Of a stretch of 64,000 nucleotides of DNA, positions 2,682 to 41,455 are shown in pieces (the stretch's first letter is position 1; every line of letters starts with the position of its first letter). Under the pieces are notes generated by a model that made no database searches, was not told the origin of the DNA, and worked only from the letters and a program-made list of their open reading frames with translations. Source of the DNA: the human T2T-CHM13v2.0 reference genome, Homo sapiens. The translations under genes and the position numbers were made by a program. Location of the stretch: the NCBI RefSeq assembly GCF_009914755.1, contig NC_060925.1, one strand, 5' to 3'.

Positions 2682-3080
<399 letters not shown>

Positions 3081-13290: not shown

Positions 13291-15132
13291 ACCCACTAGG
13301 GAGTGGAGCATGTGCAGAGACAAGGCCAAGCAGCAGTGCACTATTCCTGGGCACAGGGCTGGCTGAGCTAGGCTGGCCCACCCCAGTAAGTGGCTGCTCT
13401 TTCACATCCCCTCCAGATGGGGCTGCACAGTGGGGGATGGGAGCATTTCTGGGTGATGAATGGGGGCTCAGAGACCTGCTTCTATTCCTGGGCCAGCTGA
13501 CCCACACCCCACTGTGGAAGGTTCCTGGTTCTGTTGGTGGAGGTTTGTTGGGGAGGGGCTCGAAGGAGAGGAGGGTGAGGTGCAGGGTCAGCGTGGGCCT
13601 ATCCATGGCTGCCAGAGGCCGCCCCCACAGTCCTGCTGCTCCTGTGCCCCATGCAAGGGCCAGACATGAATGTTGGTATCCGTCCCCACCCTGCTACATT
13701 CCCTGCATAGACACCAGGAGGCCTTCTCTCAGGCATTGCCTCCTGAGGCTCTTTAGAGGCCACTGTACCCAGAAATGAGGCCCCTGGGTGACCCCAGGAC
13801 AAGCCTCAGTGCCCATGCTTAGCAACAGCACCTTGAGGGGCTGGCGTCAGGCTTAGGGTGACTCTGTAAATCAGAGCATTTTAATGCATAAAATCTGGAA
13901 ACACGAGTCTATGAATTGTAATCGAGCATGACGAAATCTCATCAACAGAAGTAAATATGAAATGCGGGGCGATGGGGAGATGCACAGATGTGGTTTCTGC
14001 ATCCTGACCCCACACCCCAGCTCTGGCTCACAGCTCCACCCACAGATTTATTCTCTGCACACAAGAAATTAGCTCGAAGTATTTCTGTTGGTTCAGCTCA
14101 GCTGCTGCACTCTTCCTGTCTGTCCCTCGAGGAGCTGGAACATTCTCCTGCCCTCCACCTTCAAGGCATGAGCCATCTTAACTTTGTTGTCCATTGAGGC
14201 ATAGACTTTTGGCTGGAAAACAGTCTGGAGAGGCCAATTTCTCTGCAACAACTGCAGACCTGGAGCTAGTAATAGTGGGCATCTGTTTACCATCTGTATC
14301 TGTGCTAAATGTTATTCCTGCCCCACTTTCTTGCAGGCCTTCTCAGAGCCTTTGCTCTGCTAATCTATAATGCAAAATTCCAAGGAGGGCTGAAGCAGGC
14401 AGGGTTTCACAGACTTATTTGGCCATAGGCAACTTTCTAGCCATAGTTCATCTTGGCCTCAGCATCTCCTGGGCTAATATTCCATTTGGATAATGTTGGT
14501 ATGAGGCCTGTAAGCTCATTACCTGATTGCAAGGCCATTTGGGTCCCAAACAGGACCTCAGCCCAACTTGGGGGCAGAGGTGTCTCAGCCTTCGGACCTC
14601 CTTTTGGAGAGAGCAGTGACTTTGTAATCTCATGACAGGTTGGGGCGGGGAGATGCCAGGGAGTGGCTTCTTCTAAAGAGCAGGAGTGAGCTCTGTCCCT
14701 AGTTAGGCTGATCTTGCCTTGGAGTGAGTCATACCAGTGTGTGTGTGTTCATGCGTGTGTACATGCACATATGTGTGTATGTGCACATGTGAGCCATGTA
14801 CAATGATAACTCAGCACCTCTGAGATGCAGACCAGATGCTGCATGTGGCATGTGGTGGAGAGTACAGGACCCCATCTTGGGAAACGCCCATCGGCAGGAG
14901 AGCTGAAATCCTTACATTAAAAAGTCCTTGGTCTGATGGAGTTCTGGACTTCAGGGGCCCCAATCTTTATTTAAGGAACCTGCAATCCCACTGGGAAGAA
15001 AACAGCCCACAGAAAAGCACACTCATGGACATACACACATGCATATATGCACCCCAATATACAACCACATGTACATATAGACCCAGACATACGTGTGTGT
15101 GATATATGTATATATATATATATAAAATACAC

Positions 15133-23917: not shown

Positions 23918-24360
23918 GTGTGTGTACAAGTGCACGTGGGGATCTAGGAGAGTGAGTGGGTGAGGCGTGCCGTCCTGTATGCGCAGGCTGTGTCTATGGG
24001 TGTGAGACGGTGTGAGTGGCACTGTGTGTTACAGGTGGGGGCACATGTGTACCAGTGTCTACATGTGAGTGTGTGACTATGGCTGTGGGTGCATGACCAC
24101 CCATGTAACAATGCATGACTGTCCTGCGTGGTTCTCTGTGGGTGATTACATATGTTCATGCACATGCATGCCTATGAATGTGAGTGTGTGGGACTGGGGA
24201 GAACCACATGGCTCTATGTGCTGTGTATGGCCAAGTGGTTCCATATGCCTGTGTATGACAGCATGTCTCTTGTGCCTGTGCAAGTGTGTGTGTGTGTGTG
24301 TACGTGTGCCTGCCACCAAAGTGTGTGTGCGTATGTGTGCATGTCACCAGGCCCCTGTGT
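23918..24360. repeat. (TG)-rich degenerate tract
   Basis: GTGT/GCAT repeats. Confidence 0.7.
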
Positions 24361-24483: not shown

Positions 24484-25482
24484 CGTTCAAAACATATTTT
24501 TTTGAGCATTGATGTTGGAGATACAGTGAGGAACAAAACAGGCAAAGAATCTGCATTCCTGGAGCTGGTAGTCATGTGGAAAAGACAGGGAGGAAATAAT
24601 AATTATAAGATAGTCTAATAATTACATTATCATAATTTGATAGTTTCTATGAAGGCAAAGAAGTCAGGGTTGTATGAGACCTTAAGGGTCCTCATTTAGC
24701 TTGTGGGGGGCAAAGGTTAAGAAGGGCTTCTTTGAGGAAGTAACATTTAGGCTGAGGCCTGAAGAATGAATAGGAATTGGCTAGGCAAAGGGGTATAGTA
24801 GATGGGTGTGGGGAGGAAGAGTGTTAAGGAAGAGGCAACAGTATGTGAAAAGACTCTGACGTGTAACAGAGCAAGTTTCTTGGAGAAACTGCAAGAAGGC
24901 CAGGGAGGAGGCTGGAAAAGTGGCAGGCACCAGATCTTTGGGGCCTTCTGGGTCATGACAAAGGCTTGGGACTCCTACAGGCAACAGAAGGCAGGGAGAG
25001 TTCCCATGTGATCATGGCTGCTGTGCTGAGAGCTGGTTGTCAGGCTGCAAATAGTGGAAGCGAAAAAAATCAGAGAGGAGGCCGATGCATTGGTCCAGGC
25101 AAGGGTGGCATTGGCTTTGCCCAGTGGTGGGAAGTAGTGAAGATGGAGAGAAGTAAAGAGAATTCAAGGTCTATTTTGAGGTTAGAATTGACAAGCATTG
25201 GTGGTGGGTGGCACATATGAGGGCAGGAGAGGGAGGTGTCCAGGATGACTGCAGGGTTTTGGTTCTGGATTCTGGCTTGTTGGAAGTGCCAGTGGCTGAG
25301 ATGGTGAAGCAAGAGGAGGAGCACATGCTTAGATGGAGGGAGGAGTGAAAAATTCTAATTTGGGCATGTCGAGTTTGAGATGCATTTGAGACACAGGGGT
25401 AAAAATGTCCAGGAGGCAGTTGTAAACAAAAGTCTGGAGTTAGGAAGGAAGGTTTAAGCTGGAGACAGGGGTTTATGTAGAG
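24484..25482 (-). mobile_element. L2 3' region
   Basis: GAGGAAGTAACATTTAGGCTGAG, CAGGATGACT, TTTGGGCATGTCGAGTTTGAGATGC, GGAGGCAGTTG..GTCTGGAGTT. Confidence 0.85.
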
Positions 25483-25614
25483 TGGAAACCAGAACTGGGA
25501 GGAAAACCAGCTTTGGTGAGTAGATTGGGGACAGAGGGGTGCCTTTCTTTGCTTTGATTGCAACGTCCACTGTTTAGGGACAGTTGGACATGGTCATTAA
25601 GACTCTGAACTCTG

Positions 25615-26155
25615 CTTCTGGGTATATATCTTTTGATTTGAAAGCAGGAACTGGAGTAGATATTTGTATACCCACGTTCATAGTAGCATTATTCGCAACA
25701 GCCAAAAGATAGAAGCAAATGTCCATTAACAGATGAATGGAAAAAACAAAACGTGGTGCTGACATACAAAAAAGTGTTATTTAGCTTCGAAAAGGGAGGA
25801 AATTCTGACACATGTGGTAACATAGATGAACCTTGAGGATATTATGCTGAGTGAAATAAGCCAGACACAAAAGGACAAGTACTGTATGATTCCACTTCAA
25901 TGAAGTGCCTAGAGTAGTCAAATTCATGGAGACAGAAAGTGGAATAGAGGTTACCAGGGGCTGGGGGGAGGGAGGAGTGACGCGCCATTGTTTAGTGAAT
26001 ACGTGAATACGTGTTTCACTTTGGGATGATGGGAAAGTTCTGGAGATAAATGGTAGTGACAGCTGTACAACAGTGTGAATCTATTTAATGCCACTGTATC
26101 AAACACCTAAAATGATACATTTCATGTTATGTATATTTTACCACATTTAAAAAAT
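25615..26155 (+). mobile_element. L1MB-like 3' end inserted into a MIR
   Basis: ATGAACCTTGAGGATATTATGCTGAGTGAAATAAGCCAG..TATATTTTACCACA; imperfect TSD AAGACTCTGAACTCTG / AAGATTCTAGACTCTG. Confidence 0.9.
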
Positions 26156-26365
26156 AAGATTCTAGACTCTGGAGCAACCAGACTACTGTATTTGAATCCC
26201 AGCTGTCTCACAAACAAGCTGTGTGATGTTGGGCAAGTTGCTGGGCCTCTCTCTGATTTGGTTATCTCATCTGTCAAATGGATACCTTAATAGTACCTAT
26301 CTTAAGGGCTGCTGAGGGGATAAAATGAGTTAATATATGTGCAGCGTTAAGAATGTATCACATGC
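26156..26365 (+). mobile_element. MIR (host of the L1MB)
   Basis: GACTCTGGAGC..TTGAATCCCAGC..GGGCAAGTT..AATGAGTTAATATATGT. Confidence 0.85.
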
Positions 26366-26434
26366 TTTGTGAGTTGGCTGTTATCCTTAATAGCAGCAGG
26401 CCAGAACCTGGGGGTGAGCCTCTGTTACTGTAGT

Positions 26435-26548
26435 CTGTAATCCCAGTGCTTTGGGAGGCCAAGGTGGGTGGATCGCTTGAGTCCAGGAGGTTGAGACGAG
26501 CTTGAGCAACACGATAACGTTCTGTCTCTACAAAAAATTAGCTGGCTA
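26435..26548 (+). mobile_element. Alu left monomer (FLAM/AluJ-like), 5'-truncated, no 3' poly(A) tail
   Basis: CTGTAATCCCAGTGCTTTGGGAGGCC..TCTCTACAAAAAATTAGCTGG. Confidence 0.9.
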
Positions 26549-26565
26549 ATAATTAGCTGGCTAGT

Positions 26566-26695
26566 AATACAGTAGTCTGGCGGGCTCCAGAGTCTAGGAG
26601 CTTATTTTTTAATTGTGGTAATATATACATAACATAAAATGTAACATTTTTAAGTGTTTGATAGAGTGGCATTAAATATATTCACATTGTTGTGC
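26566..26695 (-). repeat. Inverted duplicate of 26065-26192 (L1MB end plus MIR start)
   Basis: Reverse complement aligns at ~88% by hand across the L1/MIR junction. Confidence 0.92.
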
Positions 26696-27528
26696 GACTC
26701 CTGGCCCCTGATTCTCTCCTGGCCTTGACTGGGACATGCAGAAGTGTTCAGGTCTCCCTGCATCCCCCAGCCATTTTCTGATCTATTTCCTATAAAGAGC
26801 CACTGCGATCTCCGCTACATGAATCTGACGGTGCCACTCCCAGCTACAGGGATAGAGAGCATGTGCTTTTCATTGCCTAAAGGCCCTGTTTGCTTCCGAC
26901 CTATCCTCTCCAACCATGTTGATCCCCAGTCTGTTCTCTGTCCTTCTCTCCACATGGCCTTTGAAGATGCTGGTTCTGACTTCTTAGAAGGATCCTCCAC
27001 CTCTTACCCAGATCTCTTGATCCCCATCCCCTGAAATCTGCCCTGTCTCTTCTCCATCGGGCCAGGCTCTGGGCTGGACACTGAGGACATGCAGGTGGGT
27101 AAGACATGGGCCTGGATGAGGAGAAAGGACACAATGGCAGTGGATGGAATAAGGAACAGTGGAGCGGAGAACCGTGGGGAGAGAACCGTGGGGGGAGAAC
27201 ATGTCCTATCCCCAACATGACTTCCTTGAAAGAAGTGCTGACTCGGCTAGACTCACATGCTGTGTCCTCCTTACTAGTAGGCAGGGTTCCTGTAAATGGG
27301 AGGCCAGGTGCATGGTACAAACTCTCTCTTCTGGTCCTCATGGTGGGATTAAAAGCTGAGCTGAGCAGTGTCAGCATTATGGGGTGGCTTTGGGGGAACT
27401 TCAGCACCCTCCATCTCCATCAGCATTTCCCCTCTGAAGTGGCATGGAATAAAATTTGAAATCAAAACGTGTGCTTATTATTCAAATGTGCCTTCAGAAT
27501 AAGTCCTCCAGCTGCCTGTTCTGATTGA

Positions 27529-35202: not shown

Positions 35203-35559
<357 letters not shown>

Positions 35560-36255: not shown

Positions 36256-37023
<768 letters not shown>

Positions 37024-39159
37024 ATCATCCTTGTTCCAAATGGTTGCACCTAAGCGTGACTGGCAGTCCCGCAGATCTGTCTCTTGCTTCAGACAACAGT
37101 ATTTTCATGGAGCAGACCCGGGACTCCCCTTCTTCTAGCCTCGATTGCTCCCAATCTCCTCTTCAGTCACAACCTCTGGACCATCTTCTTGGCCACTCTC
37201 TGCTTCCTGGACCAGCCAACATTGTTTCTGTGGTGAGCTCCCAGATTCATTAGAATTATTTCACCCATGTGGAGGCTGCCAGCAACCGCCTGGTCCACCC
37301 ACATCTGCAGGCTTCCCGGACCTACCTCTTTCTGGGCTTTCATTTCAATCTTGATGATGTGGCTTAGAGGGTGTGGGACAATGTCGAGTTGGTGGAGGAG
37401 AAGCCTGAGGGCTCTGAAAACTTGAAAATTTGAAATTTTCTTGGAAACGCAAAACCAGCCCTGTGGTGCCAAACCAGGACACTGGCTGTACCCTCTTCTA
37501 GGACATGCAGAAGCTATCCCATGATGAGAGGGGTGAAACCCTGGACTGCATGGTAGATGTCCTGGCTCTGTAGAAGAACCTGAACCAGGCCCTTTTACAT
37601 CTGTGTTCCCTGGGTTCTGTCCACACAGGCCCCACCTCTCCGACTTCCTGGAGAGCCAATTTCTTATCAAGAAGATGAGCAACCACCTAACCCACCTCTG
37701 CAGGCAAAAGGCTCACCCTCAAGCAGGACAGGGACCTTCTGGAGCCCAGAGGCCTTTCAGGGGCCTCTCTGCACCCCTCTGGTAGCAGGGCTTCTGCCTG
37801 AGCTGCTTCCTCCAGCCATTAGGCAGCTTTTTAGCCATCCTGGAGCCCCTCGTCCAAGGCATGGACCAAATAGAAACAATAAAGCTTTTTACAGCAAGGA
37901 AAAAAAGTGCTCCCGTGGGTATTCCCAAAGTGCTCATCAGTACAGAGATCATGGAAACAGGTGTGTTGCCTGGATTTCCAAAGGCTGCTTTCCTGCCTAT
38001 GCAGGTTGGCCCAACCTCAGGGCAAAGGGAGAGCCTCACTACTAGGGGTTAGGAGACATAGGTGGCAGATCCTCGGCCTTTCCCTTCTGTCTTCTCAAGA
38101 TCAGTTTTCTCATCTATAAAATGGGGGTAATGATAAGTGTGGTGACCACTAGGTGCCTGTATATGCATGACCCCATTTGTCTTCCTTGAAGTCCTGTGAG
38201 ATGGCCTCTCTTCACATCCCTAGCTGATGGGCAGGAAACAGAAGCTCAGAGAGGTGAATTGCCTGGCTCAAGTTCTCACAGTCTGAAAGTGGTAGACTGG
38301 AATTTGAACCCAGGTCTCTCTGTGCCCTACATCCCTTTGCTTTCTCTGCTCATCTTTTTGAGGCATTTGAGACAGAGGGAGGGTTCACTTCTCATTCTTT
38401 TTAATGGCTACCTATATCTCATTGGATGCACACCCCACTATTTAAGCAATCGCCTATGGATGGACATTGAGGTTTTTCTTATTTAAAAAATTCTTTCCGA
38501 TAATGATACTAGGAGTAATTTTGCACACTCACCAATTCACACACGTGCATGCATATCTTTTTGTGTAATTCCTAGAAGTGTAATTGCTATGGCAAAGGGT
38601 ATATTGATAGATGTTACCAAATTGCCTATCTTTCCATAGAGATTGCACAGGCAGCAATGTGAGATGGCAACTTCCTCTCATCTTCACCAACACAGTATGT
38701 TAGTAAGCTTTTTGATCTTTGCCAGTCTGATTGGTAAAAGGTGTATCAGGTGATTTTATTTCACATTTTTCTTAGAGGTGAGGTTGAGCATCTTTTCAAA
38801 TGTTCAAGACCTATCTATTTTCTTTGCTGGGAACTATTTTCATATCTTTGTTCATTTTTTCTACTGTGTTACTGGTCTTTTTCTCAATAGAATTGTAAGA
38901 CGTTTTTACACAAGTGGGAAATGAACCCTTTATCTGTGATAAGCACCAGATATTTCTCTTGGTTTGTTGTCTTTTGACTTTGCTAATGGTGATTTCTGCC
39001 ATGAGGAGATTTTCTATTTTTATATATACACATTTAGCAGCGCTTTTATTTTTTTGGCTTCTGGGTGTCTTGTCAAAGGCCTTCTCACATGAAGATTATT
39101 TTTAAAAACTTCCTCATGGTTTCTTCTAGGCTGCTTATTACTTCATTTAAAAATATTTA

Positions 39160-39495
<336 letters not shown>

Positions 39496-39654: not shown

Positions 39655-40912
<1,258 letters not shown>

Positions 40913-41167
40913 TTGATCCTTAATGATTTTGAATGCTCACATTTTAAAATTTTTCTGTGCTTTTTGTTTTGTTCCATTGACATATTTGTCTGCTCACAAC
41001 TTACTACCATACTATTCAAATTATTGCAGATCTATAATAAGTTTAAATATCTGATAGGGCTAGTCTCCCCTCTCATTACTTTTCAGAATTTTCCTGGCTA
41101 TTTTTTCATTTTCTTGTTTTTAAATATGAACTTCAAACTTACCTGATTACACATAACATTCTTATTG

Positions 41168-41455
41168 GGGATGAGTGCAGTGGCTCACATCTATAATCCC
41201 AACATTCGTGAGGCTGAGGTGGGAGGATCACTTGAGCCTAGGAGTTCGAGACCAGCGTGGGCAACATAGTGAGATCCCATCTCTACAAAAAAAAATTAGC
41301 CAGGCATAGTGGTGCAAGACTGTGGTCCCAGCTACCCAGGAGGCTGAAGTGGAAGGATTGCTTGAACCCAGAATTTTGAGGCTGAAGTGAGCCATGATCA
41401 TCACTGCACTCCAGCCGGGGTGACAGAGCAAGACCTTGTCTCAAAAAAAAAAAAA
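41168..41455 (+). mobile_element. AluJ-like element
   Basis: GGGAGGATCACTTGAGCCTAGGAG, GAGCCATGATC, poly(A). Confidence 0.93.

What the first reader, a model, noticed from the sequence alone, without database searches (positions are those of the whole stretch)
26065..26695. 130-bp inverted copy of an L1/MIR junction fused to a tailless Alu monomer
Seen: 26566-26695 is the reverse complement of 26065-26192 (~88%; about 13 substitutions and 2 gaps by hand). The copy crosses the L1MB 3' end, its TSD and the host MIR, so it was copied locally and is not an independent L1 insertion. It sits just after an Alu left monomer (26435-26548) that stops at the start of the right arm with no poly(A). The junction has a 13-nt tandem AATTAGCTGGCTA (26536, 26551), and the Alu piece is bracketed by TACTGTAGTCTG (26426) and TACAGTAGTCTG (26568). 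Inference: non-canonical (endonuclease-independent) Alu capture during break repair with fold-back synthesis. If transcribed, the region could form a ~130-bp stem with a ~370-nt loop.
Basis: partly seen in the sequence, partly recalled or inferred. Interest (0 to 1): 0.7.

Follow-up and report, generated by a model that had tools for sequence, protein, structure and literature searches.

The report
Old inverted repair scar beside Alu
A 126-base stretch spanning the end of an old L1 element and its neighbouring repeat was copied backwards 373 bases downstream, next to a worn Alu half; it is a real but ordinary scar of DNA copying or repair in a gene desert.

Summary
26067-26192 and the reverse complement of 26566-26693 align with 114 matches, 12 mismatches and 2 gaps. 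In the whole human assembly only this local partner crosses the L1 end into the flank. The 38 other L1 3' ends found stop at or before 26161. So the right arm is a local DNA copy and not a second L1 insertion.

The Alu piece covers 26434-26561, roughly Alu positions 23 to 143, with no right monomer and no A tail.

The proposed mechanism, endonuclease-independent capture of a fresh Alu during fold-back repair, is not supported:
- An 11/12 direct repeat flanks the piece, which breaks the "no target-site duplication" criterion.
- The piece is the most diverged of 22 Alus compared, 23/97 against 12/252 per arm lineage.
- No donor copy was found.

My best reading (about 0.45) is that an older resident Alu had its 3' half overwritten by a replication or repair template switch of the known "3-2-1-4" type, unusually long at 126 nt. 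Primate orthologues, which I could not reach, would decide. Interest is low to moderate.

The parts
25598..25614 (+). 5' target-site duplication of the L1, made of host dispersed-repeat (MIR-like) sequence
   Evidence: Read by eye; 14 of 17 positions match 26155-26171.
25615..26154 (+). 5'-truncated L1M-type element of about 540 bp, ending in a short A-run
Evidence: The 38 other genomic L1 3' ends align up to window 26161 or earlier. See also the alignment of 18 of them. The 5' boundary is read by eye.
26067..26192 (+). Left arm, the original. It holds the last 88 nt of the L1, the 17-nt 3' target-site duplication and 21 nt of MIR-like repeat.
   Evidence: It lies within continuous L1 on its left and continuous dispersed repeat on its right, so it is the template and not the copy.
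26157..26357 (+). Ancient dispersed repeat into which the L1 inserted. The name MIR is recalled and not given by any tool.
   Evidence: 39 other genomic places at 70-84% identity cover query positions 3-203 of 26155-26437. 26358-26437 had no repeated match.
26426..26437 (+). Upstream copy of the 12-nt direct repeat TACTGTAGTCTG. Its last 3 bases overlap the start of the Alu homology.
   Evidence: It matches 26568-26579 at 11 of 12 positions.
26434..26561 (+). Alu left monomer piece, truncated at both ends (about Alu positions 23 to 143), with no right monomer and no A tail
   Evidence: nhmmer with a profile of 21 Alus: E = 2.2e-29 and no other hit in 26201-27200 on either strand. All 6 best genomic matches inspected are dimeric Alus at 80-86% identity. 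It differs from the majority at 23/97 sites and is the most diverged of 22.
26533..26568 (+). 15-nt tandem repeat of about 2.4 units at the 3' end of the Alu piece. Its last 3 bases (AAT) are also the first 3 bases of the right arm.
   Evidence: the repeat finder D1 and the printed units. The period-15 count of 19 of 21 was made by eye.
26566..26693 (-). Right arm, the inverted copy of 26067-26192
   Evidence: Its only genomic relative that crosses the L1 end is the left arm.
26568..26579 (+). Downstream copy of the 12-nt direct repeat, lying inside the right arm. It is the reverse complement of 26179-26190.

Best explanation
Two layers.

(a) Near certain. The right arm was made at the DNA level by copying 126-128 nt of the nearby chromosome in reverse complement. 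It did not arise by retrotransposition.

(b) Most likely. An old J-type Alu already lay downstream of the MIR-like repeat. Later, during replication or break repair, the growing + strand slipped in the Alu's A-rich linker, which made the 15-nt tandem repeat. It then left its template and re-annealed through 2-3 bases (AAT) to the complementary strand 373 nt behind it. It copied backwards across the MIR-like repeat, the L1 target-site duplication and the L1 tail, and returned to its template further downstream.

[quoted passage not shown] Whatever lay between points 1 and 4 was overwritten. That would have been the Alu's right monomer, A tail and 3' flank, and it explains a tailless half Alu without any unusual retrotransposition.

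The 12-nt repeat upstream of the Alu would be a first, abortive excursion to the same template site (26190 to 26179) in a chained event, which also trimmed the Alu's first ~22 bases.

Shown: the local inverted copy, its limits, the Alu's extent and its high divergence. Inferred: the order of events, the replication or repair setting, and the chained first excursion.
For: The local copy crosses the L1/flank junction and is unique in the genome. The left arm is embedded in continuous L1 and continuous dispersed repeat, so it is the template.

The right arm has no A-run at the end where a retrocopy with 3' transduction would carry one.

The Alu piece is the most diverged of 14 Alus (21/97, others 5-16) and of 22 Alus (23/97, others 6-20). 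The arms show 12 differences over 2 x 126 nt, P = 0.0045 to 3e-6.

The piece carries the blocks seen in all 6 of 6 best genomic hits and in 2 of 13 window Alus: GAG(C/T)CC, a G in the position before CAAC, and CTACAAAAAA. From memory I assign these to the old J / free-left-monomer class.

No donor copy was found. The best full-length match is 86% over 104 nt, and shorter matches reach 88% over 78-81 nt. For the distinctive 3' part, all 6 of 6 candidates were scored; the 5 other than the query itself reach 83-87% over 45-53 nt, and none reaches the tandem repeat or the junction.

The three event-linked duplicates have similar divergence: arms 12/126, 12-mer 1/12, tandem unit 1/15.

Known precedent:
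- Type 3-2-1-4 events create inverted repeats (PMC5453318, passages).
- Human template-switch events reach 97-180 bp in unmasked sequence and 318 bp overall, and they can be chained (preprint 10.1101/2021.11.26.470150, passages).
Against: No ancestral allele was available, so the order of Alu and arm rests only on a short-sequence clock.

- Eight of the Alu's 23 differences sit in one 15-nt cluster. Without it, the non-CpG-like contrast (8/82 against 12/252) is only about P = 0.1 by my arithmetic.
- The arms are 30% G+C with at most 1 CpG and may evolve more slowly than an Alu.
- The majority sequences used as a yardstick are themselves built from decayed copies.
- The 11/12 direct repeat is explained more simply as a target-site duplication of an inserted Alu piece than as a second excursion.
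- Microhomology at the first switch is only 2-3 nt, and the return point cannot be examined.
- At 126 nt the copied fragment is far above the mean of 11.56 bp reported for such events.
- No trace of the supposed lost right monomer remains, so in-situ residence of a full Alu is unproven.
Confidence: 0.45

Rival explanations
1. Single complex repair event. A break between about 26425 and about 26696 was filled in one go by iterative template switching. It used an already old Alu sequence from elsewhere (RNA of an embedded old Alu, or DNA by synthesis-dependent strand annealing) together with the local inverted copy. The 12-mer was copied twice from the same MIR-like site.
For: The Alu piece is truncated at both ends, has no A tail and directly abuts non-Alu filler. 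More than half of reported non-classical Alu insertions carry 2 bp to 2 kb of extra non-Alu sequence, and they are typically 3'-truncated (PMC5402677 passages). Use of an ancient AluJ located elsewhere for strand-annealing repair has been suggested at one L1 locus (PMC1920257 passage). The arms, the 12-mer and the tandem unit have similar divergence.
Against: A flanking 11/12 direct repeat breaks the 'no TSD of any length' criterion. A fresh Alu RNA is excluded by the divergence contrast. A DNA donor should survive at about 90% identity, and none was found above 86% at full length. That search scores only the best 40 candidates and skips very common words, so a donor could have been missed.
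Confidence: 0.2
2. Two events, arm first. The inverted copy was made first. An Alu or free-left-monomer piece later inserted 12 bp inside the arm's inner end, at the stem-loop junction of the hairpin, through a staggered break. That break was filled in to give the 12-bp target-site duplication. The route would be internal priming or fragment capture.
For: A 130-bp insert (26438-26567) bracketed by an 11/12 direct repeat is the plainest signature of insertion into a staggered cut. There is a 3-nt overlap (CTG) between the upstream repeat and the start of the Alu, which from memory I take to be typical of 5'-truncated insertions. Internal priming is described as giving TSD-flanked elements without a poly(A), possibly at staggered breaks (PMC5402677 passages citing a paper I could not read).
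Against: It needs the arms to be older than the Alu piece. In fact the arms differ by only 12/126, while the piece differs from its family majority by 23/97, 14 of those not CpG-like. By my arithmetic the arms should then show 17-25 or more differences, giving P about 0.003 to 0.14 depending on corrections. The piece ends about 10 nt beyond the A-rich linker and not in it. By eye, the bottom-strand site at the junction is a poor match to the TTTT/A consensus quoted. The insertion would also fall exactly at the arm boundary by coincidence.
Confidence: 0.2
3. The right arm is an independent 5'-truncated L1 retrocopy carrying a 3' transduction of the MIR-like flank, which landed nearby in the opposite orientation.
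For: The arm contains the L1 tail, its short A-run and 38 nt of downstream flank in the order a read-through transcript would have.
Against: On the minus strand, the transduced flank is followed by the antisense Alu linker and not by a new poly(A). No target-site duplication brackets the arm: a local alignment of the flanks scores 6, at or below 79% of 300 shuffles. An insertion 373 bp from its own source would be an odd coincidence.
Confidence: 0.03
4. Small inversion with duplicated breakpoints, or a chance resemblance between two separate L1 ends.
For: Inverted duplications can flank inversions made by staggered breaks (recalled, not from a call).
Against: The dispersed repeat runs on uninterrupted from the left arm into the spacer, so the spacer is in its original orientation. 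Chance is excluded because the arms share the flank beyond the L1 end and 7 derived L1 states.
Confidence: 0.02

Closest known systems
Short-range template-switch mutations (four-point model, type '3-2-1-4' / '1-4-3-2'; Loytynoja & Goldman 2017, PMC5453318; Loytynoja 2022 preprint 10.1101/2021.11.26.470150)
   Same: [quoted passage not shown] The order of switch points fits 3-2-1-4. The product is an inverted repeat or hairpin in one step. Chaining with a forward fragment between two excursions has been reported.
   Different: The copied fragment is 126-128 nt, against a reported mean of 11.56 bp (maxima 97-180 bp unmasked, 318 bp overall). The spacer is 373 nt. The event is old and fixed, so no ancestral allele was available to me. 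It lies in repeats, which those scans mask.
MMBIR-type templated insertions (Osia et al. 2021, PMC8421209)
   Same: An insertion close to its template and inverted relative to it, with short microhomology at a junction (AAT here). Multi-template germline events are reported.
   Different: Only one junction can be examined, and its microhomology is 2-3 nt. No reference allele without the insertion exists in my data.
Non-classical (endonuclease-independent) Alu/L1 insertions, NCAI/NCLI (Sen et al. 2007, PMC1920257; summarised in PMC5402677)
   Same: An Alu truncated at both ends with no poly(A), joined to extra non-Alu sequence.
   Different: A flanking 11/12 direct repeat is present, whereas the criterion is none of any length. 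The Alu is much older than its neighbouring duplicate. A target-site deletion cannot be assessed.
Inverted Alu pairs as hairpin or dsRNA formers
   Same: Arms of about 100 nt or more within 1.5 kb that would pair if transcribed. Four such Alu pairs lie in this window.
   Different: Here the arms are one local duplicate (91% in the ungapped pieces) and not two independent insertions. No transcript is annotated within about 56 kb (hub table).

Membership tests
Non-classical (endonuclease-independent) Alu insertion | 3' truncation of the element | tested here: met
   Alu homology ends at 26561, about position 143 of the dimer, and no right monomer is found in 26201-27200.
Non-classical (endonuclease-independent) Alu insertion | No poly(A) tail | tested here: met
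   The piece is followed by the tandem unit and then directly by the arm, with no A-run.
Non-classical (endonuclease-independent) Alu insertion | No target-site duplication of any length (criterion quoted) | tested here: not met
   The 12-mers at 26426 and 26568 match at 11/12 and bracket the piece. The background rate is 46 of 446,922 at that spacing.
Non-classical (endonuclease-independent) Alu insertion | Insertion site unlike the L1 endonuclease consensus TTTT/A | tested here: inconclusive
   By eye, the bottom strand at the inferred site shares 2 of the 4 T positions and the A after the nick. The true pre-insertion site is unknown.
Non-classical (endonuclease-independent) Alu insertion | Empty ancestral site, usually with a target deletion | not testable with these tools
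   No primate orthologues are held; the genome search says the assembly has no relatives here.
Template-switch mutation, four-point type 3-2-1-4 | A fragment copied in reverse complement from nearby sequence | tested here: met
   126/128 nt at 90.5% identity, with the template 373 nt upstream. The copy is unique to this locus.
Template-switch mutation, four-point type 3-2-1-4 | Order of switch points along the reference: 3, 2, 1, 4 | tested here: met
   About 26067, 26192, 26565 and 26694, from the alignment limits. Definition from PMC5453318.
Template-switch mutation, four-point type 3-2-1-4 | A related ancestral sequence that lacks the fragment and explains the flanks linearly | not testable with these tools
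   No outgroup genome is available.
Template-switch mutation, four-point type 3-2-1-4 | Size within the reported range | tested here: met
   126 nt lies within the reported maxima (97-180 bp unmasked, 318 bp overall) but far above the mean of 11.56 bp.
Classical target-primed Alu insertion | Intact 3' end with an A-rich tail | tested here: not met
Classical target-primed Alu insertion | Flanking target-site duplication | tested here: met
   11/12 over 12 nt. The same repeat has other possible origins.
Internal-priming Alu insertion | TSD present, poly(A) absent, and 3' end at an internal A-rich priming site | tested here: inconclusive
   The TSD-like repeat is present and there is no tail, but the piece runs about 10 nt past the A-rich linker. 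The defining paper could not be read; the features are taken from PMC5402677.
L1 3' transduction retrocopy (for the right arm) | A new poly(A) after the transduced flank, and its own TSD | tested here: not met
   No A-run at the inner end. There is no flank repeat above the shuffle level.

The most novel reading that the evidence does not exclude
The whole 270-bp block (12-mer, Alu piece, tandem unit, inverted arm) is the fossil of one repair event. A polymerase or reverse transcriptase hopped between an Alu-bearing RNA and the local chromosome, visiting the same MIR-like site twice. This would be a natural example linking endonuclease-independent Alu capture with chained inverted template switching.
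Probability: 0.15. Interest if true: 0.45.

Novelty: new member of a known kind. Interest (0 to 1): 0.25.

Why it matters
It is a clean example of how a long hairpin-forming inverted repeat can arise in one step from local sequence, and of how a 'tailless half Alu' can be produced by later overwriting and not by unusual retrotransposition. It is checkable at a known coordinate. At 126 nt it lies in the upper tail of reported local template switches, which repeat-masked scans tend to discard. It sits in a gene desert with no annotated transcript nearby, so no functional consequence is expected. The case also shows that adjacency of an odd Alu and a rearrangement does not show that they arose together.

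Tried and rejected
- Rfam scan of 25400-27400 gave only two sub-threshold matches: snoR28 at 22.5 bits against a gathering score of 45, and Metazoa_SRP at 16.8 against 70, over the Alu piece. There is no known RNA family here.
- Donor in the window for the Alu piece: none. The best matches are 84% over 77 nt and 81% over 104 nt.
- Donor in the genome: none above 86% at full length.
- Remnant of a right Alu monomer or of the first 22 Alu bases: none by profile search. My by-eye alignment of 26408-26437 to the Alu 5' end (17 of 30) is at chance level after allowing for shifts, so I dropped it.
- A target-site duplication between the Alu's 5' flank and the sequence right of the arm: none. The score was 6, and 79% of 300 shuffles did as well.
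- Right flank 26696-27400: single copy, so there is no second copy of the whole structure.
- I wanted to test whether some 'differences' of the piece are ancestral 7SL-like states, which would place it in an older monomer family. The whole-genome search with the 7SL family gave no answer twice, and I left it untested.
- The paper on internal priming (PMC2784234) is not held.
- An idea that the switch used the GTAGTC shared by the arm start and the Alu right monomer was dropped. The 6 bases to its left match the left arm 6/6 and the Alu copies poorly.

Full report
**1. What is there**

The region 25598-26693 reads, from left to right:
- a 17-nt piece of an ancient dispersed repeat (25598-25614);
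- a 5'-truncated L1M-type element of about 540 bp (25615-26154) ending in a short A-run;
- the same 17 nt again (26155-26171, 14 of 17 identical by eye), which is the L1's target-site duplication;
- the rest of the dispersed repeat (to at least 26357);
- about 70 nt with no repeated match;
- a 12-mer, TACTGTAGTCTG (26426);
- an Alu left-monomer piece (26434-26561);
- a 15-nt tandem repeat of about 2.4 units (26533-26568);
- the inverted copy (26566-26693).

Sequence to the right (26696-27400) is single copy in the assembly. I call the dispersed repeat MIR from memory of its consensus. The tools only show that 39 other genomic places match 26157-26357 at 70-84%. The L1 subfamily was not tested.

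**2. The inverted repeat is real, local and unique**

A local alignment gives 26067-26192 against the reverse complement of 26566-26693: 114 matches, 12 mismatches (5 transitions, 7 transversions) and 2 single-base gaps. The Kimura distance is 0.10. The repeat finder finds the same three collinear blocks.

Used as a query against the whole human assembly, 26060-26200 returned 40 places: itself, the local right arm (query 8-133), and 38 other L1 3' ends. All 38 stop at query position 102 or earlier, which is window 26161.

In an alignment with 18 of those ends, each has a different flank after the A-rich end, while the two arms share theirs. Over about 85 L1 columns, the two arms share 7 states that differ from the majority. 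There are 5 left-private columns (3 of them one gap), 4 right-private and 3 unresolved.

So the right arm is a copy of the left arm made after the L1 had inserted and aged. The left arm is the original, because L1 continues to its left and the dispersed repeat continues to its right. Among the 15 inverted pairs of 40 nt or more within 1.5 kb in the window, this is the only one (2 entries) that is neither a pair of opposed Alus (12 entries, four pairs) nor GT/AC-rich (1 entry). As RNA the region would form the long stem, with z = -18.6 and 0 of 20 shuffles folding as well.

**3. The Alu piece**

A profile of 21 Alus aligns to 26434-26561 (E = 2.2e-29). That runs from about Alu position 23 to just past the A-rich linker, with a 7-nt insert that is the tandem duplication. 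Nothing else in 26201-27200 matches on either strand.

The six best genomic matches that I inspected are all full dimeric Alus, at 80-86% identity. They share with the piece the blocks that from memory mark the old J / free-left-monomer class. In the window only 2 of 13 Alus have those blocks.

The piece is the most diverged Alu in both comparisons. It differs at 21/97 sites against 5-16 for 13 window Alus, and at 23/97 against 6-20 for 21 genomic Alus. Nine of the 23 differences are at CpG-like sites, and eight fall in one 15-nt stretch.

**4. Relative age**

If the Alu had arrived as a fresh copy when the arm was made, its divergence from its family should equal the per-lineage divergence of the arms, 12/252 or 4.8%. 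It is 23.7% overall and 14.4% without CpG-like sites. The binomial P is 3e-6 and 0.0045 respectively.

This is the main argument against capture of a fresh Alu with the arm and against Alu insertion after the arm. It is not decisive:
- Without the 15-nt cluster, the non-CpG contrast is about P = 0.1 by my arithmetic.
- The arms are 30% G+C with at most 1 CpG and may evolve more slowly.
- The majority yardsticks are built from decayed copies.

With a neutral rate of roughly 0.15-0.2% per million years per lineage (recalled, not computed here), the arms would be some 25-35 million years old. That figure is only a rough guide.

**5. The junctions**

The 12-mer at 26426 matches 26568-26579 at 11/12, and the latter is the reverse complement of 26179-26190. 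The two 12-mers bracket a 130-nt insert (26438-26567).

In this window, 12-mers at a spacing of 127-133 nt match that well in 46 of 446,922 cases. With about 49 admissible placements, that is about 0.005. The repeat is therefore probably meaningful.

The upstream copy overlaps the Alu start by CTG. The tandem repeat overlaps the arm start by AAT, which is a 2-3-nt microhomology at the switch into the arm. The outer end of the arm shows no homology beyond 26693-26695, and the return junction cannot be analysed without an ancestral allele.

The three event-linked duplicates have similar divergence: 12/126, 1/12 and 1/15. This is compatible with one event but has little statistical power.

**6. 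Mechanism**

Retro-origin of the arm is excluded. There is no A-run after the 'transduced' flank and no target-site duplication of its own. What remains is DNA-templated inverted copying.

[quoted passage not shown] Human events of 97-180 bp (318 bp including repeats) and chained events separated by a forward fragment are on record, although the mean is 11.56 bp (preprint 10.1101/2021.11.26.470150, passages). Germline inverted templated insertions with microhomology and several templates are also described (PMC8421209, passages).

In such an event the stretch between leaving and returning is lost. That would remove the Alu's right monomer, A tail and 3' flank if the Alu was already there. I rate this 'resident Alu overwritten by a (chained) template switch' at about 0.45.

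The rivals are:
- one complex repair event that also patched in old Alu sequence from elsewhere (0.2);
- arm first, then insertion of an Alu piece into a 12-bp staggered break at the stem-loop junction (0.2);
- a retrocopy with transduction (0.03);
- inversion or chance (0.02).

**7.

Non-classical insertions are defined by four things: 3' truncation, no poly(A), no target-site duplication of any length, and a non-consensus cleavage site (PMC1920257, passages; PMC5402677, passages). Here the first two are met, the third is not, and the fourth is inconclusive. The empty site cannot be seen.

Such insertions often carry extra non-Alu sequence, so the resemblance is real. Membership is not established, and a fresh Alu is contradicted by the divergence contrast.

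**8. Limits**

- No primate orthologues, RepeatMasker library, editing database or population data were available.
- The genome search scores only the best 40 candidates and skips very common words, so 'no donor' is a weak negative.
- The 7SL comparison failed.
- The paper on internal priming could not be read.
- Supplements of the cited papers were not consulted.
- I searched the paper library four times for mechanisms, not for this locus. I make no claim about whether this locus is described in print.

**9. Verdict**

The 'local inverted copy' inference is right. The 'endonuclease-independent Alu capture with fold-back' mechanism is not supported as stated.

The feature is an old, probably neutral rearrangement scar of a known kind, unusually long for its class, in a gene desert. 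Interest 0.25.

Noticed in passing
window 39154-39479 (+) with 40167-40481 (-); also 1487-1735 with 2726-3018, 35203-35463 with 36655-36937, and 40167-40464 with 41163-41455: Four pairs of oppositely oriented Alus lie within 0.7-1.4 kb of each other, with arms up to 188 nt at 85% complementarity. These are ordinary potential dsRNA-forming pairs. They account for 12 of the 15 long inverted repeats in the window.
   Followed up: partly
window 27167-27194: A 14-nt unit, GAGAACCGTGGGGA, occurs twice in tandem at 93% identity in otherwise single-copy sequence.
   Followed up: no
window 26067-26192 vs 26566-26693: The 12 mismatches between the arms are 5 transitions and 7 transversions, which is fewer transitions than neutral decay usually gives. 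The numbers are too small to test, but some mismatches could date from error-prone copying and not from age. That would make the event younger than the clock suggests.
   Followed up: no
window 26510-26524: Eight of the Alu piece's 23 differences from the family majority cluster in about 15 nt. This may be a separate complex mutation and not gradual decay.
   Followed up: no
window 24230-24345 and 14737-14780: GT-rich, microsatellite-like tracts.
   Followed up: no
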